The notes: a model not told the origin generated them from the letters alone. Counted from the first letter of the stretch, positions 1,107-46,709 are shown. The stretch: DNA of 64,000 nucleotides from Cycas panzhihuaensis (GCA_023213395.1 CM041465.1:110057741-110121740); one strand, 5' to 3'. A program made the numbers and translations.

Positions 1107-2499
1107 TAAAAGCATGCCTACGGGAGATCACTATAGATGGGGTACTCTAGACAAATTCTAAGGTTATAACAAAGGTTTAGAGATCTCAAGGAAATATAGA
1201 TCACCCTCAAAGGGATGCCTACACATTAGAACATAGGTTCAAGGACCTCCAAATCATGTGTTATTCTCCTATTTCCCTTAGATACCTCTCTTGATTTGAA
1301 TAAGATAACAAGGTATCTTTGGGCTACCAAATAGCATAAATAGAGCTCTTCTATACTTAGAGGGAGAAAAGAGGAGCCATATCTCTTTTTGGAAAAGGAG
1401 ATAAGCAAAGAAGAAGTAGAGTGATAATGAAATGAGAGGCAATTCTAACAAGCCTACTTAGAATTTAGAAGTTTGTCATCAAAGGGGTAGGTTTTTTAGT
1501 GTTGAGATCACAATAAGGAGGCAATGTTATAACCATCCAAAAGCAACTAAGTCGCAAACTCTTCTTTTATAACAAGAATACTAGGATGGTGAGGGCATGT
1601 AAAGAAAGAAGAGTAGGAGAAAGTTGCAGATATCTTATGGCGACTGAGTTACAAGTTTTTCTTGGGCTTCCAAAAAGAATGAAATATTATTTTGAGTTTA
1701 TGGTTTCTATGTTGTTAGGATATGGTTTGGTCTCTTTTGTGTATTTAGAGTAAAGTTCTAGTCTTGTGCAAGGATGATTGCTGCCAAAGAAATGAAATAT
1801 ATAAAAGACTAAAATAAGTATATAAAACAAATATGCAACTTCCCCTTCTTGGTCCCCTCATTCTCTTTTACCTCTAGATGAGTGCAATGAGGCTAAAATA
1901 TGGAAGGAGGAAAGGGAAAGGTGTAATTACATGAGTACACCTTCTCTTAGGTAAGAGGGGGATTGACTTCCTTTAGGTAATGAAGGATCTAATAGATATT
2001 CCTGAAATGCATGCAAATGATATGCTCCTTTCTTCTCTTCCATTTTATGGCATGCAACTAAGGAAAACTTGCAATAAGAAAAACTTTAAATTCTTTTTTT
2101 TATTTTATGGAACAAAAGTTATAATGGGACAGAAAGAGAAGAGAGGAAAAGTGTGAAAGGAAGAGTTCACCTGGTTACATTGTTTAGTATCACGTTTTAT
2201 TGCACCTCTAGTTGCCACTCCTCGTAATGCACTCCCACAAGTTGTTAATTATCTTCGCTTCTATTATTTATTGTAAGAGTTATTGGAGCTAGAGGTAGGG
2301 GCTTCCTTACCTTCCCCTAACCTCTAAGTAGGGCTTACTTACCTTTCCTAACTATGGAAAAATGCAAGGAAGAAACAAAAAATAAAATGAAAACAAAACT
2401 TAAACTGAGCAGAATGTTACCTTTTGCAATATGTTGCCTTGATTAGTAAAGAAAGTCTCTAACCTGTAATGCAAGAAAAATGACGCTTCCCACAAGAAA

Positions 2500-2589
<90 letters not shown>

Positions 2590-4427
2590 TGTATGTATGT
2601 ATGTATATGTATATGTATATGTGTATATGTATCTTGGTAAAATAAAGTCAGTGTATCTATTTGTAAGCCAAAAAAAAGAAAGAAATACAATATTTTATAT
2701 TCCTTATTTACTATTTTTGTATGCAACAATCAAAACAAATATATAAGGGAGAGGATAAGGGTATTGCCTCGTGATGGAAAGCTCCTCTATATGGTGATGA
2801 ATCCTTATGAACTATGAGTAGCTCATTTGGCTAGGTGTTGCAAATGAATACAAGGTTAATGGATGTTTGTATAGGCCTCACAATGGATAAAATCCCAAAA
2901 CTAATGGTGGAAATGTTAGGAAAGATGCCTCAAAGTATGAGGGAGGGGATTACCCAAGTGAGAGGCAAGTTTAGGAGTTATAACTCTAGCCTATAAACCT
3001 CATCAAAAGCTCCCTTGGCTTGGTTTAGCCTCCCTATTTTCACAGGCTAGCAGATTTTGTCTATGAGGAAGGGATTGGTAATAAAATGGAGGTGTTACCT
3101 CCTTGTTTTGAGTAAAAATGACTCTAAAACTAAATAAAATCAATCCAAACCCATAGATTTAGAGTTGCATACATGAGAAAGCAAGGTAGAGCCATCAAAT
3201 GGGAGATTCTAATAAGGAGAAACCAACAAAAGTAGATTTTTCATACAAACTTGGCAATTATAGATGAAGAGCAACTATTGAAAGGAAGAAACTTGTAAAT
3301 TTTATGGAAGAGAAGAGGAATTCTTTGGTCATTTGACTACTTGGAGGATCCTCCTAGCTTCCCTTATATTGATCTTCCTTTGCCTAAGCTACTCTTGGGC
3401 TATTTTTTTTGTTGTGGATGAAGCTTGTGAATTTTGTGTATTGGAGAGAGTGGAAGAGAGTTGGAGAGTAGATGCTTAGAGAGAGCTTGATTCATGCCAA
3501 AGGTTCCTAAAATGAGTTTGAATTTCAGTTTTTGTTTGTCTAGTGAGGCCTCAAGACCATTGGGGCCCAATTTAGGCTAGTCCTAAGGTGAGATCATGTG
3601 TTTCCTAGCAATTAATTGTGAGAATTAGCCATTTCTGGTTGTGGATTAATTGTATAATAATCACCCCATGAAAATAATTGAGACATCACTAATATATTCA
3701 TGGTCCCACGAATATAATAGCAGGGCACAAATATCAAAGTTGTGCAGACAGAAATTATAGTGGGGTAGCAACAAAATTATAAAAATAATAAAAACCAGTG
3801 AGTATCAATAAGAAAGGGGGGGAGAACTCCATAGAAAAGACCTATAATGCCTCCCTAAAGGTCTAAACATCAATCTAGGGCCATCCTATACACTAACAAC
3901 TAACAAAAATGCATAATAGAGTCATCAAACTAGGGTCAGAACCTTGTGGGGATGATGACAACCAAGGTGCCAAAGTATGGATGGTGATTAGGTAGTGAAT
4001 CCTAGTGAGATACATAAGGAAATCTCATAATATACAAGCATTGGGGTGCGTCTATCTGCTAAAATTCCCCAACAAACTATCCTAGACAGATTAAGTGATA
4101 GATAAAGTAAAGAGAGGAGGGGGAGGATGTGACCAAATGAGCATTGAATGAGTTAAGGAGTGTGTGAGCTAGGCTATGGAGTCCCATGAGCACCTATAAC
4201 TGGGAGGAATATCACCTAGGAGCTATCATGCCATTAGACTAGAGTCCTAGTCATCATGGGTAGAAATTTCATGCATAGGCAAGTTAATTAAACAAGTAAA
4301 TCAACCACCCAGGCAACCATACAAACATCACATATTACAATAACTATAGAAATTATGATAGAGTGCAAGAGATAAAATATATACCTATATGATGGTATCC
4401 CAATCCATTCTCACTAGGTAGTAAACA
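1107..4427 (-). repeat. 3' LTR of element A
   Basis: 1107-1425 aligns with 16983-17302 and 1427-4415 aligns with 31405-34295. The - strand start TGTTTAC resembles the TGTTTCC start of element B's LTR. Confidence 0.9.
2504..2631. repeat. Compound microsatellite (TA)n-(TGTA)n-(TATATG)n inside the LTR
   Basis: Directly visible. Confidence 0.98.
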
Positions 4428-4440
4428 CTACCTCCTTAGT
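4428..4440 (-). other. Polypurine tract of element A
   Basis: - strand reads actaaggaggtag immediately before the LTR-start TG. Confidence 0.6.
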
Positions 4441-5046
4441 AGTAGAACCTCATCACTTAGAAGCATTACATGATGGCAAATATTGTGAATAGAATCTCAT
4501 TAGTAATAGTATATAAAGCATATATGTTGGTAACCAAGGTGAGTAGCAAGTGTCATAATAGATCAAATGGATGGAAAACATATGTTTAAGCGAGGAAGAG
4601 GAGGTATGGCTTGGTTGATCCTTATGGTATAGAGCCCTAGACCTAAAACATATAAGAGATGATAGAAAGGTGACCTAGGAGTTACCCATGATAACACCTA
4701 GGTAGGTTGTATAACCCTAAAAAATAGGATGGGACTAGAATCCCTATAGAAAAAAATAGAGTAGTAGTGAGGGAGAAGGAGATGAGGGGATGCCCCATCA
4801 CCTTCACATATAAGGTCAACATAATATAAACACAATCTAGGAATAATATAAAGATCATCTAGAAAGATATAAACATAATCTATAAGCATGTAAAAACTGT
4901 ACCATGAGTGATACGAGAGCCAAGTAGAGAGACAAACCTTCAGTCACCATAGTTTAACCTCTTTAGTGGCCTACTTTCAGAGGTATAAGAGTGGTCAAAA
5001 TAAGGAAAGGATGATAATCCAAAGGTTTATATGAGGAGCCAACCTG

Positions 5047-5476
5047 TTAGGTTATGAGGGAAGGATCATCTAAGAGAGGGAGATGATGCTCAAGAATGAG
5101 GAAAACTAGGCTATCAGCTTCAACATTTTGGTCATGAGGGATATGCCAGATGTCCATCATAGGGAGAGGATAAAAGTGACCTAATAGTCAAGGTGAGGGA
5201 CCTCAATCGAGGATAGAGGACTTAGTAGACTTGAGTTAGTTACAACACCATGATTTAAGAGTCATAAAACAAGATAATGGGGTTGTGGTAGAAGTGAATC
5301 ATATCGGTGAGTGCCTATATAATGATAATATATTCTGCTTCATTATTCATGGCCTCAGGTAGGTACATCCCAAAATGTATGAGGTCATGCTTGAAAGGAT
5401 CATAGATGATCCAAGAAGTTGCAAAGGGTCCCAAGTTGTCACAACTACCATTGTCAATGTAGATGAGGAGGGCCAT
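5047..5476 (-). pseudogene. Stand-alone archaeal-type RNase H (aRH) ORF of element A, decayed
   Basis: Manual translation: MALLIYIDNGSCDNLGPFATSWIIYDP...EAMNNEAEYIIII*AL...LFYDS*IMV...(frameshift)...IWHIPHDQNVEADSL. This matches the aRH/RVT_3 motifs DG.SRGNPG, TNNEAEY, DSQL, HIPR..N..AD.L. Confidence 0.85.
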
Positions 5477-6653
5477 TGCATAGGAGAAGAGATAGAACTT
5501 GTGAAAAAAAGTAGATAAGGAGTGTACAAAGTAAAAGAAAGGTGGAGAAGTAGGGCTTAATTACTCAAAACAACTCAAAAAGGTGATCATAATAAGATAG
5601 GAGAGCCCTATGAGTAGTCTACTAGGCTAAGGGAAGGCTTGCCCTATGGAAGGAGAAGAGTCATTAGGGGCTAAGCCTACTACAAGGTTGCAAAGTTGGT
5701 ACTGAACCAACAAGGGGGCTATAATAGGGGAAAACTCTCATTAGGAGCTCCAATGAGCTAAAATAATTACAAAAATAGACCCAACATACCAAATGAGTCT
5801 GTAGAGTATAAACACTAATAGTGTTTTAGGCAACCAGGAAAAGAGGGGAAAAGGGCTCATGTAGGAGACAAAAAGGGCATCATAAATATGTGAAACAACT
5901 AGAAAAATGGGTGCTTAGAAGGGTAATTGAGTCAAAGCTCTGAATGGATTGTGGATAAGATTAAAACAATGATCACAATGGTTCTTCTATGATGAGAAAA
6001 GGGTTTAGTGCCCTCGGTAGCCCTACTAATAAAATGGGTAGATGTGTGAAAATGGGATTCACTTTCATGCCCTCACCATCATATTTGGAGAGAGACCCTC
6101 TTGCTACCTTGGTTCACCCTTAGTCATACATGTCACAGAGGAGATCTAGTTGTTGGATCATCATGCAAAGATAGTCTATAGGACCAAATTTGCATGATGG
6201 TAGCGATCAGGATAGACTCGATATGTCGATCTAGACCTAGTCTTAGTATTTTGTTATTTTATTTTATGACTTTTAATGGCTAGGTAGAGCTCCTTATGGG
6301 ATTTTCAGGGTTGTTAAGACCCTAATTTAGGATCTGAAAGAGGATGGACAAGGGTATTAGGGAGCCCTAGTCTTAGTGGACCAGTCTTGGTCCAACAAAC
6401 TGAATTTTCTTTTTTAGTTTATTTCTTATTTTTTGAATTTTAAATAGGGCTAACTCTACCCTATGAACTTGTTCATAGTGCCATGAACATTGTAGTGGGG
6501 CACTTGGTACCCTCGTGGGGCTTGCTGATATATTTATAGTACTACAAAAATATTAGCACGATAAGAATGGGATGAAGAAAAAAAGAAAACTCATTTAAAT
6601 TTTAATTCCTACCTGATTTCTATTATATTTTGTTGATCTGGGAGAGATCTTAA

Positions 6654-7806
6654 TTGATAGGAGGGGTGAGAGACCGACCAATGTTATCTTGTTTGGATGT
6701 TTGGTACCTCATTATCACAGTGGATAACTGTGAGAATAAGGGCTCCCCGATGATAGGTTTTGTCACACTGATAGATCTATGTAAGCAAGCCATCTTGAGG
6801 AGATGTAGGCTACTGAAGCTCATCCAGACGTTGTAGTATACCTCAAACTAGGGTCTAGTACTAAACATCATATCACATTAGGACCAAAGGAGACATATCT
6901 TCCACCTTCCACTAGTACAAGATATTACGATCATACTTGCGGATGTTAGGTGGATCCTGAGAATGTTAGCAAGTGGTGTGATGGTAGTGTTGGGGATACT
7001 ACCCAATATGGATGTCGTGCACCACAAGGAAACTTTATTTTTCACTAGTAGGGGATATTAGTCTTAGAGAGGGATTTCGCTTTGAGTGATAGTTATGTCT
7101 AGCATTCCTCATATGATGAAGTTGATTATTTTAGCTATTCTATTCTAGATTTTCCAAAAACATAATTACAAGGAGATTCCCAATGGATGGATGACTACCA
7201 TTTGGAGGTGTGAGGTGAGGGATCATTTCAATTAGGTTGCACTAATAGTGGCTAACCTCATAGCTCAGTTGGATCAGATTCGAGTGGTGGGACAAGGAGG
7301 ACTTTCTTTCTACTCATTGCTTTAGTGTTGGTCATTCAACCACTTTAGGGGAGTGGCACCAGCAATAGGACCACAACTGATTGTAGCTACTGTCCCTATG
7401 ATCCACAGATAGCAGACATGCTTTTAAAGTGTAGGAGAGTTATCCCATGTTAGATGATCAGTAGCTACCACATCTCTAGATCTCCTCATAGTTGACGAGT
7501 ATACATAGGATCCCTATCACACCATATACTGGGTGAGTGACACAAAGGAGGGAGGGGCAGGAGGGGCCTCAATAGAGGAGGTAGGAGAAGAGGAGAATGA
7601 TGGAGTAGCTACTAACGGCTCTGAGGAGGATGAAACACCAACAGTTGTAGAAAATGCAGTCTTAGCCACTAGAGGAGTAGGGATCCTTGGGGTCAAGGAG
7701 ATAGAGGGAGGTAATATGCCTACTACTCTAGGAGAGATAGGAGTAGGGGAGGCAGTAACTGCAAGAGAGGGTGCAGTAGTTGGAGAGGTCCTAATGATCC
7801 AAGGAG
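6654..7806 (+). pseudogene. Antisense plant mobile domain (PMD, PF10536-like) exon with an acidic Gly/Glu-rich tail, element A
   Basis: One frame links ORFs 6654 and 7533 through stops: ..ISH*DQRRHIFHLPLVQDITIILADVRWIL..HFN*VALIVANL..LL*CWSFNHF..HR*..LDLL..YT*DPY. These correspond to PMD motifs W..T.TFHLP.GE.TITL.DV..IL, W..A.LA.L, LLQ.W, RW, LD.L...W.PY. Confidence 0.78.
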
Positions 7807-7950
7807 GTAAGATCTCCCATTTTCCTTAGCTTAGAACTTAATTTAGTTATCTCTTTTTATGGTTTTTATTTATTATGTTTTATGCATCATAAATATTGGT
7901 GGATTTGTTATGTATCCTACACTAACATCTTTGATATATGTGGCTAGTAG
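7807..7950 (+). other. Putative spliceosomal intron in the antisense PMD gene
   Basis: G|GTAAGA donor, AT-rich body, CTAAC at 7922-7926, TAG|G acceptor. The phase-1 join gives an open frame (GGDDMEGLVIQVV...). Confidence 0.68.
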
Positions 7951-8555
7951 GTGGAGATGATATGGAGGGGTTGGTCATACAGGTGGTTGTTAAGCTCTTC
8001 TTGCATATATACAAGGAGGGACAACCTCCTATCATTGGTGATGAGCGGTCAAGGTCAATAATATAACACACAATGGCATTTTCTCCCCTCACATGGGTGT
8101 AAGATATATGGGCTGTGAAGGCCCAAGAGTAACACGTGAGGGAGGACCAGCTTCAAGGTGAGAGAGATCAGCTCCTAGGAGAGAGGGACTAGCTATAAGC
8201 CTTGGTGTAGGTGTTAGAGATCTAAGGAGGATCTCAGGATTCTAGAGATGATGTGAGGACCACCATGCTTAAGGAGAGGCTTTATGGGATGTAGAGATAG
8301 CAAGACCAGCTATTGCATGAGAGGGATTGATTATTAGGTAATAGGGACCAACTATAGGAGAGGTTTGATTGTCTAGTCGATCAAATGGATGCCTAGTCCT
8401 TATTCACTAGGATAAACACATTGGCACCATCCCAGAGGAGGGTGAGGTATAAGGGGAGTGAGGCTAAGACCTCACAGCAAAGAAGGAGGAGGATCCTAGA
8501 AGGGATGTGGTCTCTAAGCAAGGGCTTAGGTAGGCTAGGAGAGGACACACCATGA
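7951..8555 (+). pseudogene. Downstream exon of the antisense gene, coiled-coil-like (ERDQL heptads)
   Basis: After one frameshift: REDQLQGERDQLLGERD*L...QDQLLHERD*LLGNRDQL*ERFD. Confidence 0.6.
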
Positions 8556-9349
8556 GAGAATGGAAACCCCATAAGACCATTGTACTCATGGGTTTTTGAG
8601 AGAGGAAAGCTTCAGACCTCTAGGCGGTCCCTTATTACATACAGATGCATGATTGTATATACCCCTCATAATGATTTTGGCTTTCTTAGGCACATGGTGC
8701 CAACAATTTATACCATCACTCATTTTAGACATATATATACATGGGCCACATTGGTACCCTATTTTGACATATTATGCTTATTTTTTTGATTATGGATGTA
8801 GAGATCATTGTATAAATTGATTCATATTTTGCTTTAACATGTACATATATATGTTTTACTTGGATGCTCTCTTTTATGCAACATGCACTCGCACCAGGCA
8901 CACATGATCACCCTATGCAGTAGGTGACCTCATATGAAACTAGGGCAAAGGGATCATGCATGTCCCTCAAATGGGACATGGGGATCCTACTAAGAAAGTG
9001 ACGAGGTGGGCATGAATACCCCAATAAATAATCAAAGTGGAGATATGGACTATCCCCAAGGGCTTTCCAAGTAGTAGCTCATGCTCGAAAGCAAAACTAA
9101 GGTGTGTCCTTGGATGAAATCTTAACCATAGGTGTGGTGATAAATTGATATAACTAAGAAATTACTACTATATAGATAAAAGGGGGTGCTTTGTTGTTGA
9201 AAGGGGGATAAGAAGCTCCTTTAGAAAGGGGCGTGGCTTCCTTGTCAATACACTAAGTGACCCAAGACCTAAACATACACCATGCCCCCAATACATAGGT
9301 GTGGTGAAGCATTTGGGAGGTAGTTTAGGCTCATTTTAGAGTAAAGGAA

Positions 9350-12150
9350 GGATGTCCATTCTACATGTTATTTATAGCTTTGTCAAATTCAATCCCTTCT
9401 AATGTCACCATCCTATATACGCCATTGTCGAGGTTCTCAAGAATAATGAAGGGACCTAGTCATTTGGGGTTGAACTTGGATAGTTGATCATAGAGGTATT
9501 CTAGTTTAAAGATTTAATCCCTAGGGTTTAGAGGGTGAGGACGTAGATATTTATCATACATACTTCTTTCCCTAGCCTTGGAAGTGAGGTTTCCTTGGTA
9601 CATAGCTAAGCATTTCTTATCTAGAGCTTCAAGGTCTAGGACATGAGCCTAGCAACATAACTCCTCATTAATGAGATCCCTAAGGGAAACTCTTAAGGAG
9701 GTCATCTCGACTTCTAGGGGGAGGATCACTTCATTCTTGTAAACGAAGGAGAATAGGGTCATCCTAGTTGTAGTACAAATAGAAGTACGATAGGACCACA
9801 GGGCAAAATGAAACTAAAGATACCAATCCTTTTGGGAGTGGACCACTGCCTTCTTTAAAATATTGATAAGAGTCTTGTTAAATGACTTAATTTGGCCATT
9901 GGCCTAGGGTAGTGAGGAGATGAGATCTTGTGAGATATCTTGAATTTCTCACAGAGTTTGTCCATCTCATTATTGTGAAAAGGAGTTCCATTATCTATGA
10001 TTAGGATATATGTGACTCTGAATTAATAGATAATGGGCTAGTAAACAAAAGTGGCAATGGTATTGCTAGTAGTGGATGATAGTAGGATTGCTTTATCCCA
10101 TTTGGTAAAGTATTCTATTGCCATCAAGATGAATTTATGTTGAGAGGATGAAGGTGGAGTGATGGCCCCAATGAGGTCTAATCCCCATTAGGAGAAAGGC
10201 CATGGGGAGATAATAGGATTGAGGACCTTGAAAAGCAAACAGATCATGTTGGTATGCTCTTGGCACTTGTAATAACATTACACATAAGCATTGGTATCCT
10301 TGAAGAGGGATGGCCAATAACAACCCATATGGAGGATCCTTTAGGCCATGTATTGGCCCCCCAAAATGGCCTCCACAAATGCCACTATGACACTTATGGA
10401 GGATTTGGTTTTCTTTGTTAGGGTTACATAATAGAAGAGGACTCCATTGAAGGATCTCTTATATAACACTTCCTCTATGAGGAAGTGTTATCTGGTAGTA
10501 GCTCTAATGTGCGACTTTACTTTGTTACTAGATTGAGAAGGATATTACTACTTGGTGAGATATTATATAATATGTTCATACCATTCACTATTTTCTAGTA
10601 GATGGGGAGATGAATCTTAGAGGGCCAGGATGAACTCATTAGGTAATGAATCATTAACTAGGAGGTTTGAGGGATTGAGAATGGGGGAATCAGCTAGTTA
10701 CTCGATAACCACCATTCCCTTCTTCGATTTCCTATTGATAATCTTGAGGTTCTACTCTTAGAGGAGGATGGCCCATTTTCCTATCCTCCCAATCAAGTTG
10801 GATTGGGTTAATAGGTACCTCAATAAATCAGATTGGATGATTATGTAGGTGGTGTTTCCTAGGATGTAATGCCTAAACTTCTTGGCTATATGGACTAAGT
10901 CTAGACATTCCTTTTCAGTAGGAGGGTAGTTTAGCGCAGCTGACACTAGTATGGAACTAATGAAATATATAGATCTCTTGGTCCCAAAGTCATCTTCTTA
11001 CATGCCTCCTAAGTACTCATTGATGGCTAAGGTATATAAGATAAATGGGCGATCAAAGAGAGGGTATGCCAAAATAAGGGTAGAGACTAAGGCTATTTTG
11101 AGCTCCTGGAATGCCTCCCAAGCCTTAGAGGACCATATAAATAAGGGCCCCTTTTTAAAAAGGTTAGTTAGGGGTTTGGCATTTATGGTGAAGTCTTCTA
11201 AGAAATGCCTCAAGAAACCTAATCTACCTAAAAATGACTTAATTTAATGTTGTATTTTTTGAGGGGATATGTCAAGGATGGATTTGACCTTATTAAGGTC
11301 AATTTGGATCCCTTGTTTAGATATAAGGAAACCTAAGAGCTTATCGGTAGTCATGGAAAACATGCATTTAAGTGAGTTTAGGCTAATATGGTATTTGTAG
11401 CACCTTGTAAAGATAGCACACAAGTTTACAGGGTGTTTGGTCCTCTTACGGGAGAGGCCCATCATGTCGTCCATGAAGACCTCGAGGGTTTTATTTATGA
11501 GGTCATGGAAGATGAACTATATTACCTTTTGATAAGTGGAACCTACATTCTTTAATTCAAAAGGGCATTGCCTTGTAGGTAAATGTGCCCCATAGGGTAG
11601 TGAAAGCCATCTTGTGATGGACTTGAGGGGACATTTGGATCTAGTTCTATCTGGAGAAATTGTATATTAAAGACATGACTTTAAAACCTATCATTCGATC
11701 AATGATTTGATCAATGAATGACAAGGAGAATTTATCTTTGGGACATGCATTGTTTATGTCCTAGAAGTTGACAGAAATTCAAATTATCCTATTTTTCTTG
11801 GCAACTGAAATGATATTGGATACTTATTTAGGATAATTGATGGAAGTAATTAGCCCTACATCTACAAGCTTCTCTACTTCCATCTGTATGGTGATAGAGA
11901 GTTTATGATAGAGATGACATTATTTTTGCTGCATAGGGTAGGCACCCAGAATGGTTGTAAGGTTATGAGTAATAATGGAGGAGTTTATTCCTTTCTGTTT
12001 GAGTAGTCGCACATGAAGACGTCATAGAACTCTTGAAATAGGAGGACGTACTCCTCCATTTCTTTAGGTGTACACTCTGCTACTACTTTGATGACCTTAC
12101 CAAGGGTGAGGACGATGCCCTTAATTTCCCCTATGCACATGGTATTCCCC
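9350..12150 (-). pseudogene. pol: RT-RNase H-integrase of element A
   Basis: VFMDD at 11466-11477; ORFs 10758, 10998 and 11244 carry RT/RH motifs (LNYPPTEKECL, KFRHYILG); integrase core and a KF.PKW.GPF motif near 9450-9480. Confidence 0.93.
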
Positions 12151-12912
12151 TTATCAAAGTGAAAAAGAGAGGAGGAGTGTCAGACTAATTCGGGTCAGCT
12201 AGAGGAAACCTCAAGACTAGACACTTCTGGAAATTAAGCCTATGGTGTCTAGAAGGGAGGTTGGATATGGAGCCCACTAAATGCTCTAATTGAGCCTCAT
12301 CATTCTCAAAGCAATCAATCCCATGGATAGTCTTACTCAACGAGGATGAGGGATGGGGTGAAGGAGGAGTGACAGGCCTATAATGATTAATACACCATTC
12401 TACATAATCTGAGGACTTCTTAGAGGAGTCAGAGGGTATCCTCCTATGTCACTATGTCCTATTACATTGAGAAGGAGGTTAACTAGGACTTGGATCATAA
12501 GTTGTAGAGTTATCATATGAAAAAGGAGACTCCCTATCTTTGTCATCTAGATAGGATGACAAAATTTAGGGGGTGGATAAAGATGAGGTAGGGCAAGAGC
12601 TCATACAAGTAGTGGGAGAAAGTATGTATGGCTCCTAGGATATAGTGGAAGTATCATGATCCACTAAAAGAGTTCTAGGTTAGGGCTCAAGACTAGAAAG
12701 AAGATGAGAGGAACAGCCCCTACAGATGCCAAGGAGAGATATGGGATGAGGAGTTCCTCACACTCATCATTGGACTCGTGGTCACTCATGATAGTGAGGT
12801 GCCCATAACTTCTAACATCAATGTGGGAAAAACAAATTAGATTTAAAGAGGAAAGGAGAGGTTCTCCCTCTACTTTAAGAATGCTAGGGATATCAATTGA
12901 GTAGGTGGTAGA

Positions 12913-13549
12913 TGTTGGGTATTGTGACAACAATCGTTTAAGGCTAAAATTTTGGCATGTTTTTAGCACAGTTTCCCCCCCTAATCTTTCTCGAGGGGTT
13001 CCAAGGGGGGCGGAAGCCCCCCATTACCGGGGGGTGCAGGAGGAGTGGAATACCCCGCGCTAAGAGGGGGTTAAGGGGAGATAGCCCCCGACCTAAAAAA
13101 TTAGCCTTGTAAACCTTATTAAAATGTAAAGAGAATCAGGGTCATTTGATACAAATACCCTAGATTCTATGGTTGAGATTTTGGATGTCCCTCTCATGTA
13201 GCCCATTTTAGGGCTTTTCTTATTATGTTGTATGTAATGTAATGTACTGTGATGAGGGCAGTGGCTGGTTGTTATTCCTGAGAGCACTCTGCTATTGAGA
13301 TGTACTGTTTCTCCATTCTACAGTAAAAAGATCGATACCTTTCCTGTGTGGATGTTTCCCTAGCACACTGCTAGGTTTTACTACATTATATTAGGTGCAT
13401 ATGTGATGTTTAGCTTGTATATTTATGTCATTGCATTATCTCTGATTGTAGAACTTGCATGTTAAATCTTAGTTTTGATTCTTGTAACTAGTTACAAAAT
13501 AGTTTTGATCTTGTGGTGGTTTAAGGTTTGGGACCTTGTATTCTCAACA
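12913..13549. mobile_element. Solo LTR (637 bp, probably copia type) inserted in the PR-RT spacer of A
   Basis: TGTTGG...CTCAACA termini; perfect 5-bp TSD gtaga at 12908-12912 and 13550-13554; no internal domain. Confidence 0.9.
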
Positions 13550-13659
13550 GTAGAGTGGGTGAATGAATCCTTATTACCCTTTGTTGGCTTGCAAGCCACC
13601 TAACATAGTTGATGAGATGACTGGATAGGAGGTGGTTCCCAAAAAATAACTTTCATTCA

Positions 13660-14030
13660 TCCTTCATGGATGAATTTGAGTTGGCCCCAGTAGGATAAAC
13701 ATACAGCTCTAATTTGATCAAGCAATAGGCATCCTAATTAAAGGTTGTAGTCCACATTGACATCGAGGACTATTATATCAGTGAGGACAATTTTGTCCTT
13801 AAGGGTAAGAGGAATGGAAACCAATTCCAAAAGCATCTTTCTGCTACCATCGCAGCTTTAACATCACCATGGGACTAGTTTGAGGGTTGTTATACCCAAT
13901 TCTTGCATTGTGTGTAAGGGCATAGCATTAACAGAAAAACTATTATCTACAACTATCCTTATAAAGGTACACTTAGGAGTGTCTATGGAAATGGTGAAGG
14001 GGTAGTTCCATTGACACTCCCTTTTACTTA
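13660..14030 (-). pseudogene. Aspartic protease region of element A
   Basis: IVVDNSFSVNAMP...VDYNL*LGCLLLDQI; aligns with DNGS.VNAM...YNLLLG.PWL in B and D. Confidence 0.75.
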
Positions 14031-14689
14031 TGAGTGGGAGATCTTTACAGTTAAAAGTAATAAGGGGCTCTTAGTTTTGGGCAACACCCAAAGCATTGAT
14101 AGGAATATCAGTTTGCCCCAAAGCTTCAAGAAGAAGGGTGCGTTACTCAGGGCAACTCTATAAGATATCCATCATGGATATTCTTGTAGGCATAATATGG
14201 ATCTCATTAACTATAAAGAATGACTTCTCATTCCCGATAGGTTTGGGAAGCACCCTTCAAAAGTCATAGTGCCTAGGGTGAATGGGAATGGTCTTAGGTA
14301 CAATAGGGATCTTAGAGGGTGGATTATCTACAAGAAGGTTTTGTTAGAAAGTGAAGGCCCCATCGGCCTCCCTATCCACTTGAGACCTTGTGATCAGGTA
14401 CAAATGGGTGGTCTCAAGCATCTAAATAATTCTCATCCCCTTATTTTAGGGTTAAAAAGATGAGGAAGAATGGGGACAAGAACCACTAGAAGAAGATAAA
14501 TCTCTTATCCCCTTCTCCTTTATTTATTTAGGAATAGGGTTAGGGGATCATCCTATGTTCCTTATCCCTCTATCTTGAGTGGATTGATCCCATTCCCTAT
14601 ATTTATTTAGGGAAAGGATCATGATGAATGGGTTGGTCTAAGTTATGCCTAAATGCCTATTTAGGAGAAGAATCACATCGTGGAGTAAG

Positions 14690-16963: not shown

Positions 16964-16981
16964 TCCCTAATATGGTCACCA
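16964..16981 (-). other. Primer binding site of A (TGGCGACCA type, probably tRNA-Arg)
   Basis: - strand tggtgaccatattaggga next to the LTR end; equivalent sites at 25779 and 57997. Confidence 0.7.
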
Positions 16982-16982
16982 A

Positions 16983-17303
16983 TGGAAGCATGCCTATGGG
17001 GGGTCACTATAGATGAGGTACTCCAGATAAATAATAAGGTTACAAAAGGGGTCCAGAGATCCTAAGGAAAGATAAATCACCCTCAAAGGGGCATCCACAT
17101 GTCAGAATGTAGGTTTGAGGACCTGCAACTCATGCATTATCCTCCTCTTTCCCTTAAATACCTCTCTCAATTTGAGTAGGGAAATGAGGCATCTTTGAGC
17201 TACCAAATAGATTAAATAGATCTGTCTTATCCTTAAAGGGAGAGAAGGGGAGCTAGATCTCCTTTTAGAAAAGGAGACAAGTAAAGAAGGAGTGGTATGA
17301 TAT
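16983..17303 (-). repeat. 5' LTR of A, U5-side piece (interrupted by element B)
   Basis: Aligns with 1107-1425. Confidence 0.88.
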
Positions 17304-17334
17304 TGTTTCCCAGATACTAGGAATAGGTATGGAC

Positions 17335-17544
17335 TGTTAAAAAATAATGCACATTAGTCAACTTATAAGATTCATATTTTACAATATTATTAGTGGCAGT
17401 TGGTTTCCATTATACTCGTGAATTTATGAGTATTTAAATACTTTATATTTTATATTTTTGAGTAATTTGGAAGTGAAAGGTATCTCACGATACCGTTGTC
17501 AATCCTGGTGTTGTCGCTAGTTGATAGAATTTCAGAATCCTACA
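17335..17544 (+). repeat. 5' LTR of copia-1
   Basis: Ungapped match to 22932-23141 with 19 mismatches. Confidence 0.97.
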
Positions 17545-17556
17545 TGGGATCAGAGC
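17545..17556 (+). other. PBS (tRNA-iMet) of copia-1
   Basis: tgggatcagagc vs canonical tggtatcagagc. Confidence 0.9.
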
Positions 17557-18034
17557 AAGGTTCAAAAATCTTAGTGGAATATGCGAAATCTGATGTAAGA
17601 TTGATAGCCATCGATACTGCCCATGTTTTTCTACTTCGGCCCAATCAAAGGTACTTATCATCAACAAACTCTGTTTATTTCTTATTTTATTTTCTTATCT
17701 ATATCTCTTGATTCTGCTAAAATTACTTCAAAATTTTTATATCAACTATTCGACTGTGTTTGTATTCAATTTTTTCTCTGCCTTGAAGTCACTTAGCTTG
17801 TATTTCCATATTTATCAGTCTTCCATAGGCCTGTAGGCATCTGTGCAGACATGAATGTTTGGTGTCTATTGTAACGACTGCTATTTTTTTGTTAATTAAA
17901 CTTCCATACAGTCTTTACGCTAATAATTACTGTACATATCTTCTGCATCGCCTTTAATCAGTATTCGCTCTTTGAGAAACCCTTGAAGTCACTATCCTTT
18001 ATCTCACAGATGTGTCTCGCTTTTATGGGTCGTG

Positions 18035-18240
18035 ATTCCACTTTATTCTTACTTCTGTTGTTAATTCCTCGAACTTGGAGAAAGGGTCTCTGTTTGTTGA
18101 TCCTGGTATTCCTGCTATTAATTCCTCGAACTATTTGTTATTCCACTTTGTTCTTATTTTTGCTATTAATTCCTCAAACTTGGAGAAAGGGTCTCTTTTT
18201 GTCGATCCTAGTATTCCTGTTGTTAATTCCTCGAACTCTT
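18035..18240 (+). repeat. Tandem repeat (105-bp dimer, core ttaattcctcgaact x4) in the copia-1 5' UTR
   Basis: Core at 18061, 18118, 18166 and 18223. Confidence 0.9.
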
Positions 18241-18834
18241 GACCTCAGGATGTATTAATCGATTCTATTTTGTTCTTCATACCTGCATCATTGTAACTCA
18301 TTTCATTCATGCCTATCGATGTATTAATTGATTCCCGTATCGATTCGTTATTTCAATTACGTGCTTTGATTATTGCACTGTGAATCGCCTTGATTATGAT
18401 GACTTTTGCTTTGTCACTTTTGCCTTTTATTATTATAACTTATGAATCTTTTACGTTGTTAATCGCCTTGATTACGTCAATTTTGCATTGTCATTTTTGG
18501 CTTTTATCATTATAACTTGTGAGTCTTGGACATATTTCTTCCATTATATTGATTTTCCTTTTTGACTAAGTATTACTTTGAAGGGTATTATTAATCTAAG
18601 TTGCATCTTACTTTTTAAACCTTGAAATATTTTGAATATTGATTTCTTGATTTGTCTTTAAATATTGACTTGGCTTTATATTTTAAATATTGATTCCTTG
18701 ATTTGTCTTTTTAAACCTTGGAATATTTTGAATAGTGATCCCTACAATTTTTGCCCATCCTCCTCTTAGCCATAGTATCTTTCCTTCTTCCTAGACAATC
18801 ATTGACTACTTTTTGGGCTTGGAAGCAAGAAACC

Positions 18835-22930: not shown

Positions 22931-22931
22931 G

Positions 22932-23141
22932 TGTTAGAAAATAATGCACATTAGTTGGCTTACAAGATTCATATTTTACAATATTATTAGTGGTAGTCAG
23001 TTTCCGTTATACTCATGAATTTATGAGTATTTAAATACTTTGTATTTTATATTTTTGAGTAATTTGGAAGTGAAAGGTATCTCACGATACCATTGTTGAT
23101 CTTGGTGTTATCACTGGTTGATAAAATTTCAGAATCCTACA
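22932..23141 (+). repeat. 3' LTR of copia-1 (preceded by PPT gggggag at 22925-22931)
   Basis: Matches 17335-17544. Confidence 0.97.
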
Positions 23142-23146
23142 TGGAC

Positions 23147-25778: not shown

Positions 25779-25798
25779 CTCGCGACCATACTAGGGAC
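25779..25798 (+). other. PBS of element B
   Basis: ctcgcgaccatactagggac directly after the LTR end; homologous to the PBS of A and D. Confidence 0.7.
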
Positions 25799-25939
25799 CT
25801 ACTAGTAAGGGAGTTAGTCTTTATCTCTTCCTGTTGGTACTACTACCTCTTAGTGGCTTTCTCCTTTTATCCCTTTGTTGGGCAGCCTTGAATGCATACC
25901 TTACATTCCTCTGTCTCTTCTAACACGTTGGCGAATCTT

Positions 25940-31400: not shown

Positions 31401-32478
31401 AATGCTAGAATGAGAGGTAGTTCTAACAAGCATGCTTGAAATCTAGAAGTTTGTCATCAAAGAGGTAAGGTTTTGAGTATTGAGATAACAAGAAGGAGGT
31501 AATATTACAACCATCCAAAAGCAACTAAATTGTAAACTCTTCTTTGATAACAAGAAGAGTGGGATGGTGCAAAAGTACGAAGAAAGAAGAGTGGAAGAAA
31601 GCCATGGGTATCTTATGGTGATTGAGTTACAAGTTCTTCTTGGGATACTAAAAAGAACCAAACAATCTTTTAAGTTTATGGTTTCTATGTTGTTAGGATA
31701 TAGTTTAGTCTCTTTTGGGTATTTGGAGCTGAGTTTTAGTCTCGTATAAGGAAGGTTATTGCCAAAGAAATGAAATATACAAAAGACTAAAATAAGTATA
31801 TAATACAAATATGCAACTTCTCCTTCTTAGTCCCCCCACTCTCTTTTACCTATAGATGAGTGCAATGAGGCTAAAATATAGAAGGAGGAAAGGGAATAGT
31901 GTAATGCAAGGTGTTTCCTTACATGAGTATACCTCCTCTTAGGTAGGACAAGGATTGACTTCCTTTAGGTAATGAAGGATCTAATAAATATTCTTGAAAT
32001 CCATGCAAATGATATACTCCTTTCTTCTCTTCTATTTTACAACATGCAACCGAGGAGAACTTCCAACAAGAAAAAAAATTAATTCTTTTTTTATTTTGTG
32101 GAACAAAAGGTAGAATTAAGGAGAAAGGGAGGAGAGGAAGAGTGCACCTAGTTACAATGTTCAGTGTTGTATTTTATTGTGCCTCTAGTTGCCATTCCTC
32201 ATAATATGCTCCCACAAGTTGTTGATTATCTTTGCTTCTATTGTTTACTATAAGAGTTATTAGAGTTGGAGGGAGAGGCTTCCTTACCATCCCCTAACCT
32301 CCAAGTGGGGCTTACCTACCTTCCCTAACTATGAAATAATGTAGGGAAGAAATAGAAAACAAAATAGAAACAAAACTTGAAATGAGCATAATGTTACCTT
32401 TTGCAATATGTCACCTTGATTAGTAAAGAAAGTATCCAACCTATAATACAAGACAAACAACACTTTCCACAAGTAATA

Positions 32479-32509
<31 letters not shown>

Positions 32510-34300
32510 TGGTAAAACAAAGTTAGTATGTCCATTTGTGAGCCGAAAAAAGGAAACAAATACAGTGTTGTATGTTTCTTATTTACTATTTTTGTATGCA
32601 ACAATTGAAGCAAATGTAGAAGGGAGAGGATAAGGGTGTTGCCTTGAGATAGGAAGCTCCTCTATATTGTGATGAATCCCTATGAGCTATGGGTAGCTCA
32701 CTTGGCTTGGTGTTACAAATGAATACAAAGTCAATGGATGTTTGTATAGGCCTCACAATGGATAAATCCCAAAACTAGTGGTGGAAACGCAGGGAAAGAT
32801 GCCTCAAAGCATATGGGAGGGAATTTCCCAAGTGAGAGGTACCTTTAGAAGTCAAAACTCTAGCCTATTAACCTCCTCACAAGCTCCCTTGGTTTGGTTT
32901 GGCCTTTCTATTTTCATAGGCTAGTGGATTTTATCTATGAGGAAGCGGTTGGTAACAAAATGGAGGTGTTGCCTCCTTGTTTTGAGTGAAAATGACTCTA
33001 AACCAAAATAAAATTAATCCAAACCTATAGATCTAGAGTTTCATACATTAAACGGCAAGGTAGAACCATCAAATAGGAAGTTCTAATAAGGAAAAACCAA
33101 GAAAAATAGACTTTTCATATAAACTTGGTAATTGTAGATGAAGAGAAACTTTTGGAAGGAAGAAACTTACGAATTTTGTGGATGAAAAGAGGAATTCTTT
33201 GGTTGTTTGATTTCTTAAAGGGTCATCCTAGCTTCCCTTGGCTTGGTCTTCCTTTGCCTTAACTACTCTTGGGCTATGTTTTTTGCTATGGAAGAAACCT
33301 ATGAAGTTTGTGTATTAGAGAGAGTGAAAAAGAGTTGGAGAGTAGAATTTGAGAGTAGATACTTGAAGAGAGCTTGATTCATGCCAAGGATGCCCAAAAT
33401 GAGTTTGAATTTGGGTTTTTGTTTGTCTAGTGAGGCCTCGAGACCATTGGGGCCCAATCTGCACTTATCTTGAGGTGAGATCATGCACTACCCAATAATT
33501 AATATGAGAATTAACTATTTCTAGCTATGGCTTAACTGTATAATAGTTGCCCCATGAAAATATTTACAGCACTACTAATATATTTGCGGTCCTACAAATA
33601 TATTAACGAGGCACAACTATCAAAGTGGTGCAGACAAAAATTACTATGGGGTAGTAGAATTACAAAAATAATAAAAAATAGTGAGTATCAATGAGAAAGG
33701 GAGGAGAATTCTGTATAAGTCCTCCCTAGAGGTCTGCACATCAATATGAAGCCATCCTATACACTAATAACTAATAAAAATGCATGATAGAGTCATCAAA
33801 CCATGTCAGAACCTCATGGGGATGATGACAACCAAGGTGCTAGAGTATGGATAGGGATTAAGTAGTGAATCCTAGTGAGATACATTGGGAAATCTCATAA
33901 TGTACAAGTAATGGGGTGCATCCATCTACTAAAACTCTGCAACAAACTATCCTGGATAGATCAAGTGATAGATAAAATGAAGAGACAAAGAGGAGGATGT
34001 GACCAAACAAGCATGGAACAAGCCAAGGAGCATGTGAGTTAGGCTACAGAGGCTCATGAGTACTAGTAATTAGGAGGGAGATCACTTGGGAGCTATCATG
34101 CCATTGGACTAGAGTCCTAGTCCTCATAGGTAGAAATGTCACACACAAGAAAGCTAATCAAGGAAGTCAATCAAGCACGCAGGCAGCCATACAAACATCA
34201 CATATCATAATAACTGTAGAAATTATAATAGAGTACAAGAGATAAAATATATACCTAATTATACCTACACGATGGTGTCTTAATCTATTCCCAGTGGTCA
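31401..34300 (-). repeat. 5' LTR of A, main piece
   Basis: Collinear with 1427-4415. Confidence 0.9.
32479..32505. repeat. (TG)n microsatellite
   Basis: Directly visible. Confidence 0.97.
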
Positions 34301-35009: not shown

Positions 35010-36296
35010 CCTTTAAAGAGGGTAGAGACTTAATAAAATAAGGTATTAGTGATTGGTGAGTTGATTAGCCAACTTACTAAGGAGGATTAAGCTCTATTGA
35101 GGACATGTGGGTTATCTCAAGCGAGTGGGTCAAGCCAACTGGTTATGGAATATAAGATTTTTCCCAACTTTATCAACTATAGATCCTAAGAAGGAATGTA
35201 TTTAGGGTACAATCTATTTGAGATACTCATATCACTCTTAGATACATAAGGATGATTTTATAAGTAAGTTGGCATGGAGAGAGGTTCAAACTTAATAGGG
35301 TGATCGATGATGAGTCTCAAAAGACCTATAATTAGTATCTCATTGGCTTCACCAATTAGTTTAGTCCTCATAGGATATTGATTGAGGCAATGAGGACAAT
35401 AGATGGGATACATGTAATACAGAATTTCATCACCTTAATCATTATATTCAATATTATGAGGATCCAAAACTTCATGGGGATCCCTGCATAGTGGGTTGGG
35501 GTAATCAAGAGATATGAGAAGGGGTCTAGGATGAAATGGGAGTAGTATATAGTAGATAGCATATGCTTTCATTTATCTAGGATTAGAAGGTAGGGTCATG
35601 GATGTTTTTCCTATAGTTCTATCATGATGTGTTAGTTGTATGACCACATCTCATTAATAAGGCTAGGTGGAGTACTAGGAGAGATGACTATTATAGATTT
35701 AGGGATGAATATATGGCATGTGAGAGCCCAAATCCATAATAGAATCACTATAGCAGAGAGGAGTACATAGATTCCTCTACTAAGTTGAATGACTAAAAGA
35801 CAGTTAGTAAAGGACCCATATGAGGGGTTATTAATATGGAGTGATAATGAGGTTGATATGGTTGAGAGAGTAATAGTAGAGGAGGCTCCTATTATAGCTA
35901 GAAGGAGATGGAGAGGAGGTAGAGGAGGAGGTGATAGATGATAGAATATAGTTTATTGAGGTAGGAGAGGAGAGAGAGATGAGACATCAACCAATATAGG
36001 TGGGAGAGGAGAGAGAGATAATCCATCAATAAGTGGAGGTGGAAGAGGAGGTAGAGATGTTCTCCAAGCAATAGGTAGAGCACAAGGTGGTGACAGAGGA
36101 GGCTCCATACAAAGTATGGAGTTAGGTTCAATAGATGGTTAAGGAAGAGCAGGAGATGGGAGTAGAGGAGGAGAGGGAGAGGCTCCTCAAGATGCTCCCC
36201 AAGATCCTTAAGGAGAGGCGACCTTATAATCAATATAGTAGATGGTGGTAGAGTCATCGAGAGGAGAAGAGCTAGAAGGAGGAGGACAACCAATAG
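35010..36296 (+). pseudogene. Antisense PMD-like exon plus Glu/Arg/Gly-rich linker, element C
   Basis: ALLRTCGL..DPRRNVFRV..HITLRYIRMIL..GIPA*WVGVIKRYE..KWE*YIVDSI..GHGCFSYSSIMMC*LYDHI..KDPY..WSD aligns block by block with 6654-7550. Confidence 0.68.
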
Positions 36297-36395
36297 GTAT
36301 GTTAGTATATATTTTGGATATGATTGATTTTTTCCCCTTAATTATCTACCTTTTCTATAGAAGACTAATCATGATTTATATGGTTTTATGGATAG
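36297..36395 (+). other. Putative intron in C's antisense gene
   Basis: G|GTATGT donor, CTAAT at 36365-36369, TAG acceptor; phase 1, same relative position as 7807-7950. Confidence 0.55.
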
Positions 36396-36840
36396 ATGAG
36401 AAGATATTGACTCTCTTAGAGATCTATAGGATATTGGATCCAATCTTTCCTTATGCATCTATATTGGAAGAGCCTATGGCGTGGAACATCATTAACTACA
36501 CACTATTGGGAAATTAGATTGAGAACTTTAGTCCTCCATTATAGGATTGAGAAATGATGGAAAACATGTTGATGGAGTTGAAGCTCTATGAGTCAAAGCT
36601 CAAGGTAGTAGAGGACAAGTAGCATCATCTATGGAGGATGATGTTAATGCAGACTGACACTCAAGTTACTCCTTCAGAGAGTACTAGAGTGCAACAGGGG
36701 AGACAGTTTCCATCGAGGAGAGAGTCAACATATGGGTAGACTCCAAGTAGAGGGGAGAGGGCAGAGCCAAGAGAACAAGAGTGAGATCATAGAGATGAGT
36801 ATATTTTATATATGGAGACCAGATATGAGGGAGATATAAC
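36396..36840 (+). pseudogene. Downstream exon of C's antisense gene (helical/charged)
   Basis: DEKILTLLEIYR...EMMENMLMELKLYESKLKVVEDK...; same frame continues through stops. Confidence 0.45.
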
Positions 36841-37588
36841 ACATTTTGCTAGCCTCAGATGTTGTATCATGAGTCACATAGTGACATATATATTGTATAT
36901 TGACCATGTTCTATATATATTTGTATATTGATTATTTCAGTTATGATTTGTGTAACATATGTGATTTGATCATTGTCTCTAAACCCATTCCCCCTTTTTT
37001 ATCCCTCTTTTTCATATTATGCATAATATGCATTCATCAACATGAATGTCCATTAAAGCATATGATTTTTTTTTATGTCTTTTGTCATTTTTATTTTTTT
37101 GGTTTTTTTATTAAATATATACATGATAGTTTATACTTATTTCAAAGTACAAGGGGTCTTGAAGAAGAAAAAATATAAGAGATAATGAAAGAAAGAAAAT
37201 AAATTAATGGATGAAAGGAAGTTAATTATAAATATAAAACCATTTTGGAAACAAGTAGTAATAGGTTTATAAAAATGAAAGATGGAATAGCATAAGTCTT
37301 TTGAAAAGAAAAACTTATATAATTCACACCATACTCAAGATAGATTATATAAACATAAATCAAAATCCATATTTATATAATATATCTTTAAAAAACATGT
37401 TGTTTATGATGTGAAAGACTAATTTCACATGGGTCTATTTTTTCTAATACTTCATTTTATCTTTAAACCTATCAATTTAACCTTCATACTACTCATACTT
37501 ATACCTTCAAAACCTATATTTTATACTCTTTATGAAGTGGAAGTTTATACTTATTCTAGAGTAGGATGCCCCTAATATAAGATGAAAG

Positions 37589-37993
37589 TTATCCAAGATA
37601 GTCAACTAGGATAAAAGAACCTAAAGCGTCAGATTTAACATTGAGAGCTGAGTAAACAAATTGGATAGTAACTCAAGAAAATAAGGACACCAATGATGAA
37701 GCTTGATGGTAAATGGAAAGGAACTATGAAGAGTAGATTTGATATATCAAAACTAATTGATAAGCCACAATCTGTGAATTAGAGTAAATGGTAATAGGAT
37801 TATAATAGGATTATACAATATTAAAAAAATCTCCTATAATAGCAAGGTATTTAGCTTCATTATTGGTTGCTCTAGGGAGAACCAAACTGGCAGATAAAAG
37901 GACATTCCTTGATGGGTTATAAATCACCCAAGTTACAATAGACAATCCTGAGTTATCTCTACTACCTCTATTAGTGAAAATATTTAATACCAT
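37589..37993 (-). pseudogene. Stand-alone aRH ORF of element C
   Basis: 135 codons: MVLNIFTNRGSRDNSGLS..ATNNEAKYLAIIG..NPITIYSNSQIV..QL..LNVKSDALG; homologous to 5047-5476. Confidence 0.87.
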
Positions 37994-39795: not shown

Positions 39796-39879
39796 ATCTA
39801 CTACTTGTTGAATACTTTACAAGAAACCTGCATACACAACTATTGAAAGTCGAAATTGCGAACACCTATTACAATTCTA

Positions 39880-43803: not shown

Positions 43804-43885
43804 GATCTTTGTACTCAAGTTCACCGAGCAAGGCTTCCACTTAATGGATTCTCACAGAACTAAAACCCTTAGCTCTAATACTAAA

Positions 43886-44284: not shown

Positions 44285-44369
44285 ATATCCCACTTGTTGA
44301 ACACTTTATAAGAAACTTGTATACACAACCATTGAATACCGAAATCATAAATACCCATTATAATTTTAT

Positions 44370-46610: not shown

Positions 46611-46709
46611 AGGGGCTCATGTGCAATGGCTATACCCCATAAAGGGGCTTGGGTATAACACCTATACCCATATAACACTTAGAAAGTGTTTAATATATCT
46701 AACACTATT

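What the first reader, a model, noticed from the sequence alone, without database searches (positions are those of the whole stretch)
5047..8555. Candidate accessory system: stand-alone aRH head-to-head with an antisense spliced PMD/coiled-coil gene
Seen: downstream of pol, element A encodes an archaeal-type RNase H with its own ATG (5476, leftward) and a PMD gene (rightward from about 6650) across a ~1.2 kb spacer. The spacer contains an LTR-type palindrome cassette. The diverged element C has both genes too. Established: Tat elements carry aRH, PMD occurs in gypsy extra ORFs, and host PMD proteins (MAIN/MAIL1) act in silencing and transcription control. Inference: a separately transcribed two-gene cassette, possibly an R-loop-removing nuclease plus a chromatin or anti-silencing factor, functionally reminiscent of VANC in VANDAL transposons. 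The components are known separately; I do not recognise this combined architecture as described, but cannot search the literature.
Basis: partly seen in the sequence, partly recalled or inferred. Interest (0 to 1): 0.8.

Follow-up and report, generated by a model that had tools for sequence, protein, structure and literature searches.

The report
Tat retrotransposon with solo RNase H
This is a dead copy of a known kind of plant jumping gene, likely from a gymnosperm, that keeps its RNA-cutting enzyme as a separate gene, likely to replace the crippled one in its copying machinery, back-to-back with a likely spliced accessory gene; the two-gene set is published, but the back-to-back order and a short DNA palindrome shared with the element's end repeats were not found in print.

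Summary
Both genes are real but decayed. Element A (minus strand) carries an archaeal-type RNase H (5476-5047) with its own ATG, unchanged in related copies, and an antisense PMD gene (~6681-8555) with an in-frame GT-AG intron and a heptad-repeat exon. A ~40-nt palindrome in the spacer matches the one in both LTRs and nothing else in 64 kb.

The combination is published: Tat lineage III / 'structure 3, post-integrase' has a solo aRH ORF after integrase and an antisense 3' PMD gene (PMC4408406, PMC10508981, PMC13468544). Element C has both genes but tail-to-tail, not head-to-head, so a fixed divergent cassette is not conserved. The native RNase H in Pol lacks its first catalytic Asp in A and D, so the solo aRH most likely serves reverse transcription, not R-loop removal. 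The VANC analogy for PMD has a published structural basis but is untested here.

Not found in print: A's pol-PMD-aRH order, the intron, the LTR-type palindrome. The scan had no note on this architecture; two notes describe a VANC-fold gene in another retrotransposon. Verdict: new variant of a known kind.

The parts
1107..4951 (-). 3' LTR of element A (~3.85 kb)
   Evidence: Matches 16986-17305 (79%) and 31409-34257 (82%) in register; inner end placed next to the purine tract; LTR pair differs by 12-16% transitions and 4-5% transversions
3666..3725 (.). Palindrome / half-site cluster in the 3' LTR
   Evidence: Three half-sites; same cluster at 33552-33611 in the 5' LTR
4952..4967 (-). Likely polypurine tract region
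   Evidence: Purine run just before the LTR; joints and loose ends of many related contigs fall at 4967-4985
5047..5476 (-). Stand-alone archaeal-type RNase H (aRH), decayed; frame change near 5165
   Evidence: ATG unchanged in relatives; codon periodicity p=0.004
5477..6680 (.). Non-coding spacer; pyrimidine-rich leader upstream of the aRH ATG
   Evidence: No codon periodicity, p=0.75; leader printed; relatives tile it
6461..6561 (.). LTR-type palindrome cluster in the spacer (five half-site-like motifs)
   Evidence: Only non-LTR match to the LTR 40-mer in 64 kb; beats 100 of 100 shuffles for both LTR queries
6681..7806 (+). Exon 1 of the antisense accessory gene: PMD domain plus acidic Gly/Glu-rich linker, decayed; start between 6681 and ~6750
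   Evidence: PF10536 E=3e-4; 13 stops vs 47 and 22 in other frames; relatives at 38-49% identity
7807..7950 (+). Predicted intron, 144 nt, GT-AG, phase 1
   Evidence: no codon periodicity, p=0.68; no RNA evidence
7951..8555 (+). Predicted exon 2: heptad-repeat, coiled-coil-like, decayed
   Evidence: In frame after splicing; periodicity p=0.008 and autocorrelation peaks at 21 and 42 nt; no stop depletion
9330..14100 (-). pol of A (PR, RT, native RNase H lacking its first Asp, integrase with GPY/F tail); no aRH inside
16964..16981 (-). Likely primer-binding site (begins TGG next to the LTR end); tRNA not identified
16986..17305 (-). 5' LTR of A, inner part; split by nested insertions 17306-31400
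31409..34295 (-). 5' LTR of A, continued; cut off where element C begins
35022..36800 (+). PMD gene of element C with predicted phase-1 intron 36297-36395
37583..37993 (-). Stand-alone aRH of element C, ~1 kb after its pol, tail-to-tail with its PMD gene
   Evidence: PF13456 E=1.7e-6; C's integrase continues across the 39341-46700 insertion to ~39044

Best explanation
Element A is an old, dead Ty3/gypsy retrotransposon with the Tat 'post-integrase' layout, likely from a gymnosperm, whose RNase H sits as a separate gene that would supply, in trans, the RNA-cutting step of reverse transcription that its crippled built-in RNase H likely cannot. Shown: the aRH is a separate ORF 3.85 kb past the end of pol, with an antisense gene in between and a conserved ATG; the native RNase H has Leu at the first catalytic Asp in A and D. 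Inferred: the aRH protein is made from its own short mRNA and acts on the element's RNA:DNA intermediate. The PMD/coiled-coil gene is a second, independently placed accessory gene, likely a nuclear regulator of the element. In the A family both genes would be transcribed outward from the spacer, and the copied LTR palindrome likely marks a promoter or protein-binding site there.
For: Layout matches structure 3 (PMC10508981, whole text; PMC13468544, passages) and lineage III with antisense PMD (PMC4408406 section 6). Archaeal-type aRH. ATG unchanged in 261 laid contigs of 4 runs. Only two aRH loci in the window, neither in a pol. YTLA aligns to TDA of CaMV and Ty3 RNase H (weak E-values 0.1-0.5), and the codon is TTA, not one transition from an Asp codon. 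PMC10508981 reports the same degeneration for all aRH-bearing Tat structures. 7 of 7 predicted coding segments show codon periodicity at p<0.01; 0 of 5 non-coding segments reach p<0.5. Relatives at >=80% cover 30 of 30 bins of 4400-10500 in two runs, and listed pieces cross the aRH/spacer, spacer/PMD and 3' gap/pol borders, so A's order is likely a family trait.
Against: No transcript, start site or protein is shown. No RT tree was built, so lineage rests on layout. No contig spans both genes (32 of about 29,000 pieces listed). Pfam support for A's own copies is below cut-off. A is ~19.7 kb, above the 12.7-17.3 kb given for TatIII. The aRH-typical Arg reads His in A, and C's aRH has lost three of four acidic residues, though both copies are decayed. 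An AG after a T-run 22 nt upstream of the ATG (5499-5498) is also unvaried in relatives, so a spliced mRNA from the LTR remains possible. How a free RNase H would enter the particle is unexplained, as PMC10508981 itself notes.
Confidence: 0.72

Rival explanations
1. The two genes form a coupled anti-silencing cassette: aRH removes R-loops at family loci and PMD acts like VANC, both from one bidirectional promoter.
For: Head-to-head order in A and its relatives; LTR-type palindrome in the spacer; PMD-C resembles VANC DUF1985 and MAIL2 sits on a palindromic motif (bioRxiv 2024.09.27.615353, passages); VANC targets are repeated motifs (PMC5735166, abstract and section titles).
Against: C has the genes tail-to-tail; the crippled native RNase H already explains aRH; PMD genes also occur in lineages IV and V, where aRH lies inside Pol; no DUF1985 hit in Pfam scans at E<=1; nothing here bears on R-loops.
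Confidence: 0.12
2. aRH is made from a spliced subgenomic RNA that starts in the 5' LTR, as retroviral env is, and the spacer palindrome serves only the PMD gene.
For: Long pyrimidine tracts precede the ATG in A and C; the AG at 5499-5498 is unvaried and cover drops just upstream of it; the palindrome lies 120 nt from the PMD start but 985 nt from the aRH start; C's aRH follows pol in tandem and no strong palindrome was listed in its upstream gap.
Against: The candidate acceptor is AAG in A and GAG in a minority of relatives, not the usual CAG or TAG (consensus recalled); such an intron would exceed 10 kb; no donor was identified.
Confidence: 0.3
3. aRH is a last exon spliced onto pol, giving a Pol-aRH fusion, and the ATG is a decay artefact.
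For: PMC4408406 describes lineage III aRH as the C-terminus of Pol; CAG is depleted in this DNA (O/E 0.48), so CAG|TGG could decay to CAATGG.
Against: No relative variant at >=12% restores an AG at the ATG position, and most relatives have C or T at -1; both A and C begin with Met at the domain's N-terminus; no strong donor near the pol end.
Confidence: 0.05
4. A's order is a one-off rearrangement or captured piece in this single copy.
For: C and the text of PMC4408406 suggest aRH directly after integrase; no contig spans both genes.
Against: Other copies, 8-20% different, cross each border, several joints place aRH ends next to the purine tract, and one contig (depth 14.8, 46 nt on the short side) joins 6038 to 6616, a shorter head-to-head spacer.
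Confidence: 0.08

Closest known systems
Tat 'structure 3' / post-integrase elements, clusters Tat H (conifers) and Tat I (Cycas, Ginkgo) (PMC10508981; PMC13468544)
   Same: Solo aRH ORF after integrase; native RNase H degenerate.
   Different: Neither paper mentions PMD or eORFs in the passages or supplement searched; gene order relative to an accessory gene, introns and promoters are not described.
Tat lineage III (PMC4408406) = TatIII of REXdb (PMC6317226)
   Same: aRH after integrase plus an antisense 3' eORF with PMD; protease at the 5' end of pol.
   Different: There aRH is called the C-terminus of Pol and lineage III's eORF a single PMD without coiled coil. Here aRH is a separate gene, in A beyond the PMD gene, and the PMD gene has a predicted intron and heptad exon. 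Figure 2B could not be seen, so the drawn order is unknown to me.
PMD-CC eORFs of Ogre (lineages IV, V) and antisense genes of Retand/Grande (PMC4408406; PMC7264820; PMC11963269)
   Same: Antisense accessory gene between pol and the 3' LTR; Grande gene23 has its own promoter.
   Different: In those lineages aRH lies inside Pol; Retand carries TRP28, not PMD.
VANC of VANDAL transposons and host PMD-C proteins MAIN/MAIL1/MAIL2 (PMC5735166; PMC5418596; bioRxiv 2024.09.27.615353)
   Same: Element-encoded accessory protein plus a repeated motif in the element's non-coding DNA; PMD-C reported structurally similar to DUF1985; MAIL2 motif palindromic.
   Different: VANDAL is a DNA transposon; gypsy PMDs are clade PMD-A; no DUF1985 hit here; binding and anti-silencing untested.

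Membership tests
Tat structure 3 / TatIII | Ty3/gypsy domain order PR-RT-RH-INT between LTRs | tested here: met
Tat structure 3 / TatIII | Additional RNase H of archaeal type | tested here: met
   Profile of A+C hits 4e19, 3hst, 4h8k, 3u3g at E<=1.2e-8; C hits PF13456 above cut-off
Tat structure 3 / TatIII | aRH downstream of integrase, none inside Pol | tested here: met
   Only two aRH loci in six frames of the window (two-sequence profile, limited reach); none seen by eye in pol of A, B, C, D
Tat structure 3 / TatIII | aRH in a separate ORF | tested here: met
   3.85 kb from pol in A, ~1 kb in C; ATG unvaried in relatives
Tat structure 3 / TatIII | Native RNase H catalytically degenerate | tested here: met
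   First Asp replaced by Leu in A and D; no Asp at that place in C, where the frame is broken
Tat structure 3 / TatIII | aRH keeps DEDD core and the conserved Arg | tested here: inconclusive
   A keeps four acidic residues by alignment and eye, but has His at the Arg position; C has lost three; both decayed
Tat structure 3 / TatIII | Antisense 3' eORF with PMD | tested here: met
   A's own Pfam score is below cut-off
Tat structure 3 / TatIII | RT/INT phylogeny in Tat H or I | not testable with these tools
   No reference Tat sequences held; no host genome
Tat structure 3 / TatIII | tRNA-Arg PBS (64%) and 5-bp TSD (92%) | not tested
   TGG-initiated site present, tRNA not matched; outer end of the 5' LTR is missing, so no TSD
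Tat structure 3 / TatIII | Length 12.7-17.3 kb (descriptive range of 39 elements) | tested here: not met
   About 19.7 kb without nested inserts; a sample range, not a defining limit
VANC-type anti-silencing system | DUF1985 domain or fold | tested here: inconclusive
   No DUF1985 hit at E<=1; model of relative P0006 unusable, pLDDT 36
VANC-type anti-silencing system | Repeated family-specific motif in non-coding parts of the element | tested here: met
   Half-site clusters in both LTRs and the spacer only
VANC-type anti-silencing system | Protein binds the motif and lowers silencing marks | not testable with these tools
   Needs binding and methylation assays
VANC-type anti-silencing system | Encoded by a VANDAL (Mutator-like) DNA transposon | tested here: not met
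   Host element is an LTR retrotransposon

The most novel reading that the evidence does not exclude
The A family copied its LTR palindrome into the spacer to build a two-way internal promoter; the element's own PMD/coiled-coil protein binds that palindrome as a dimer in both LTRs and the spacer, keeps them free of silencing, and so switches on genomic RNA, itself and the solo RNase H together: a VANC-like self-activating circuit in a gymnosperm retrotransposon.
Probability: 0.15. Interest if true: 0.75.

Novelty: new variant of a known kind. Interest (0 to 1): 0.4.

Why it matters
Two recent papers leave open whether post-integrase aRH is part of Pol or its own gene, and how it could work from a separate ORF. 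Element A speaks to the first point: an antisense gene lies between pol and aRH, and the ATG is conserved. It also offers a concrete candidate target, the shared palindrome, for gypsy PMD proteins, whose function is unknown. That makes the proposed PMD anti-silencing role testable with one short DNA probe.

Tried and rejected
No RNA holder listed for 4900-9400; the one possible RNA run touched 4 of 30 bins; neither bears on expression. No host genome is held. Word-indexed protein searches with aRH found nothing twice (11 and 31 candidates), probably because the copies are decayed; the PMD searches gave 7 and 6 hits, mostly short fragments, and no full-length PMD-CC of this family. P0005 was dropped as a repeat-driven hit. 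Locus searches found no relative in metagenome contigs or viral contigs, so gene order could not be read in intact copies. The fold of P0006 failed (pLDDT 36), so no fold search was run. The protein atlas gave no answer. Exon 2 of A matches neither C's exon 2 nor P0006. One search used the wrong frame and one search was an uninformative 11-base scan. I considered the aRH ATG a decayed splice acceptor and rejected it. A TATA-like CTATAAATA inside the spacer palindrome was not counted, since decay of the half-site could produce it. Depth differences between genes were not used. dN/dS was not possible: no DNA of intact copies. Steinbauerova 2011 (PMID 22544262) is not held and may describe eORF introns; REXdb's element table and FASTA were not among the supplements searched; figures were not visible.

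Full report
SETTING. The window is a nest of decayed LTR retrotransposons in DNA depleted of CG (O/E 0.19) and CAG/CTG (0.48), as expected for a heavily methylated plant genome (established knowledge). No host genome is held. Self-comparison and six-frame reading give this map. Element A lies on the minus strand: 5' LTR (34295-31409 plus 17305-16986, split by nested elements), gag, pol ending near 9330, the accessory region, a purine tract near 4960 and a 3.85-kb 3' LTR (4951-1107). Its LTRs differ by 16-21%, so it is old. Element C, also minus strand, has 42-47% amino-acid identity to A in pol, and its integrase continues across a later insertion to about 39044. The host is inferred to be a gymnosperm only because the published layout is reported from conifers, Cycas and Ginkgo.

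THE aRH GENE. The frame from 5476 leftward reads as an RNase H with 4 stops in 103 codons and a frame change near 5165. Pfam is weak for A (E=0.11) and above cut-off for C (PF13456, E=1.7e-6). The A+C profile matches archaeal-type RNase H structures at E=2.6e-10 to 1.2e-8. I tested whether CAATGG could be a decayed splice acceptor. Across 56, 63, 64 and 78 contigs from four DNA runs, 17 variant rows were listed and none lies on the ATG; the base before it is C in 27-42 contigs per run and T in 6-12. The ATG is therefore a family trait. Only contigs at least 80% alike are laid, which biases towards sameness.

THE PMD GENE. The + strand frame from 6681 has 13 stops in 375 codons against 47 and 22 in the other frames and hits PF10536 below cut-off. 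A search of 1.84 billion representatives gave 7 hits, of which P0006 is a clear PMD (E=4e-24). A profile of nine outside relatives finds A and, independently, C (E=5.6e-20). Both genes have a T-rich GT-AG intron of phase 1 after a low-complexity linker, and both keep frame. Codon periodicity is present in 7 of 7 predicted coding segments and absent from 5 of 5 non-coding ones. Exon 2 is the weakest part: it has a 21-nt repeat but no stop depletion and no detectable homologue. Splicing is predicted, not observed.

THE SPACER. A 40-nt palindrome from either LTR, scanned over the whole window, finds only the LTR copies and 6461-6561 in the spacer. The spacer scores 36-39; the best of 100 shuffled windows was 20 for one query and 31 for the other. 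A, C and the window hold no other strong copy. The motif is built of repeated half-sites. Its function is not shown.

GENE ORDER. In A the order is pol, PMD (antisense), spacer, aRH, purine tract, so the two genes diverge. In C it is pol, 1-kb gap, aRH, 0.8-kb gap, PMD (antisense), so they converge. It is probably not unique to this copy: contigs of other copies cover 30 of 30 bins in runs X1 and X4, listed pieces cross the borders, and one contig joins 6038 to 6616. No piece spans both genes, and only 32 of about 29,000 pieces and 15 of 468 joints were shown. Several joints link 4967 to 9319-9321 with sides of only 19-23 nt, a weak hint that some relatives lack both genes.

MECHANISM. The native RNase H in Pol reads YTLA where CaMV and Ty3 read TDA, in both A and D (weak alignments), with a TTA codon in A, so the loss likely predates decay. 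PMC10508981 reports this degeneration for all aRH-bearing Tat structures. The simplest job for the solo aRH is therefore RNA removal during reverse transcription, in trans (inferred, 0.72 for the whole reading). Whether its mRNA starts in the spacer or is spliced from the LTR transcript is open: a pyrimidine tract and an unvaried but non-canonical AG lie just upstream. The PMD gene is likely a nuclear regulator. That rests on other work: MAIN/MAIL proteins oppose Polycomb silencing at DNA motifs, MAIL2's motif is palindromic and PMD-C resembles VANC's DUF1985. My fold attempt failed. Nothing here bears on R-loops.

WHAT IS KNOWN. PMC4408406 (section 6, passages, two supplements) describes gymnosperm lineage III with aRH after integrase and an antisense 3' PMD eORF. 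PMC6317226 (passages, one supplement row) lists TatIII. PMC10508981 (whole text, supplement searched) describes aRH in a separate ORF in conifers, Cycas and Ginkgo and asks how it could function; its text says 'upstream of pol', whereas PMC13468544 (passages) calls the same structure post-integrase and notes conflicting reports on whether aRH is part of pol. PMC7264820 and PMC11963269 (passages) cover antisense genes with their own promoter. PMC5418596 and PMC9289625 (passages) cover gypsy PMDs; PMC5735166 was seen as abstract and outline only. Eight searches showed no paper describing the pol-PMD-aRH order, the intron or an LTR motif copied into the spacer; subscription papers and figures were out of reach.

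VERDICT. A real feature and a new variant of a known kind. The parts and their co-occurrence are published, and the coupled-cassette idea is weakened by element C. What remains of interest is the clear separation of aRH from pol and the shared palindrome as a candidate PMD target. Interest 0.4.

Noticed in passing
window 4967 / 9319-9321: Contigs in two runs join the sequence after the pol stop directly to the purine-tract region, suggesting related elements with neither aRH nor PMD there (sides only 19-23 nt).
   Followed up: partly
window 4975-5008 and 58040-58071: A ~34-nt motif just upstream of A's purine tract resembles one just after the primer site of element D, where it forms one arm of a hairpin (58014-58057); a possible shared cis signal.
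   Followed up: no
window 16986-34295: A's 5' LTR is split by gypsy element B (about 17306-31400, with a deletion from pol into its 3' LTR), which holds a copia element (17331-23144); element C begins at about 34295 and is split by another insertion (39341-46700).
   Followed up: partly
window 61350-62195 and 29157-29800: Elements D and B share a ~250-aa stretch between protease and RT with no Pfam hit; A has a longer, more decayed version.
   Followed up: no
window 34827-34875: A different 49-nt imperfect palindrome lies about 150 nt upstream of C's PMD gene, a position like that of A's palindrome; C's LTRs were not found, so no comparison.
   Followed up: partly
proteins P0006, P0008, P0009: P0008 joins an N-terminal stretch shared with P0009 (which resembles, from recall, a host RNA-binding domain) to an intact PMD plus short helical tail: possibly a host exon spliced to a retrotransposon PMD gene.
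   Followed up: no
window 6707-6741 and 6159-6199: Two further hairpins, one overlapping the PMD start region, one mid-spacer.
   Followed up: no
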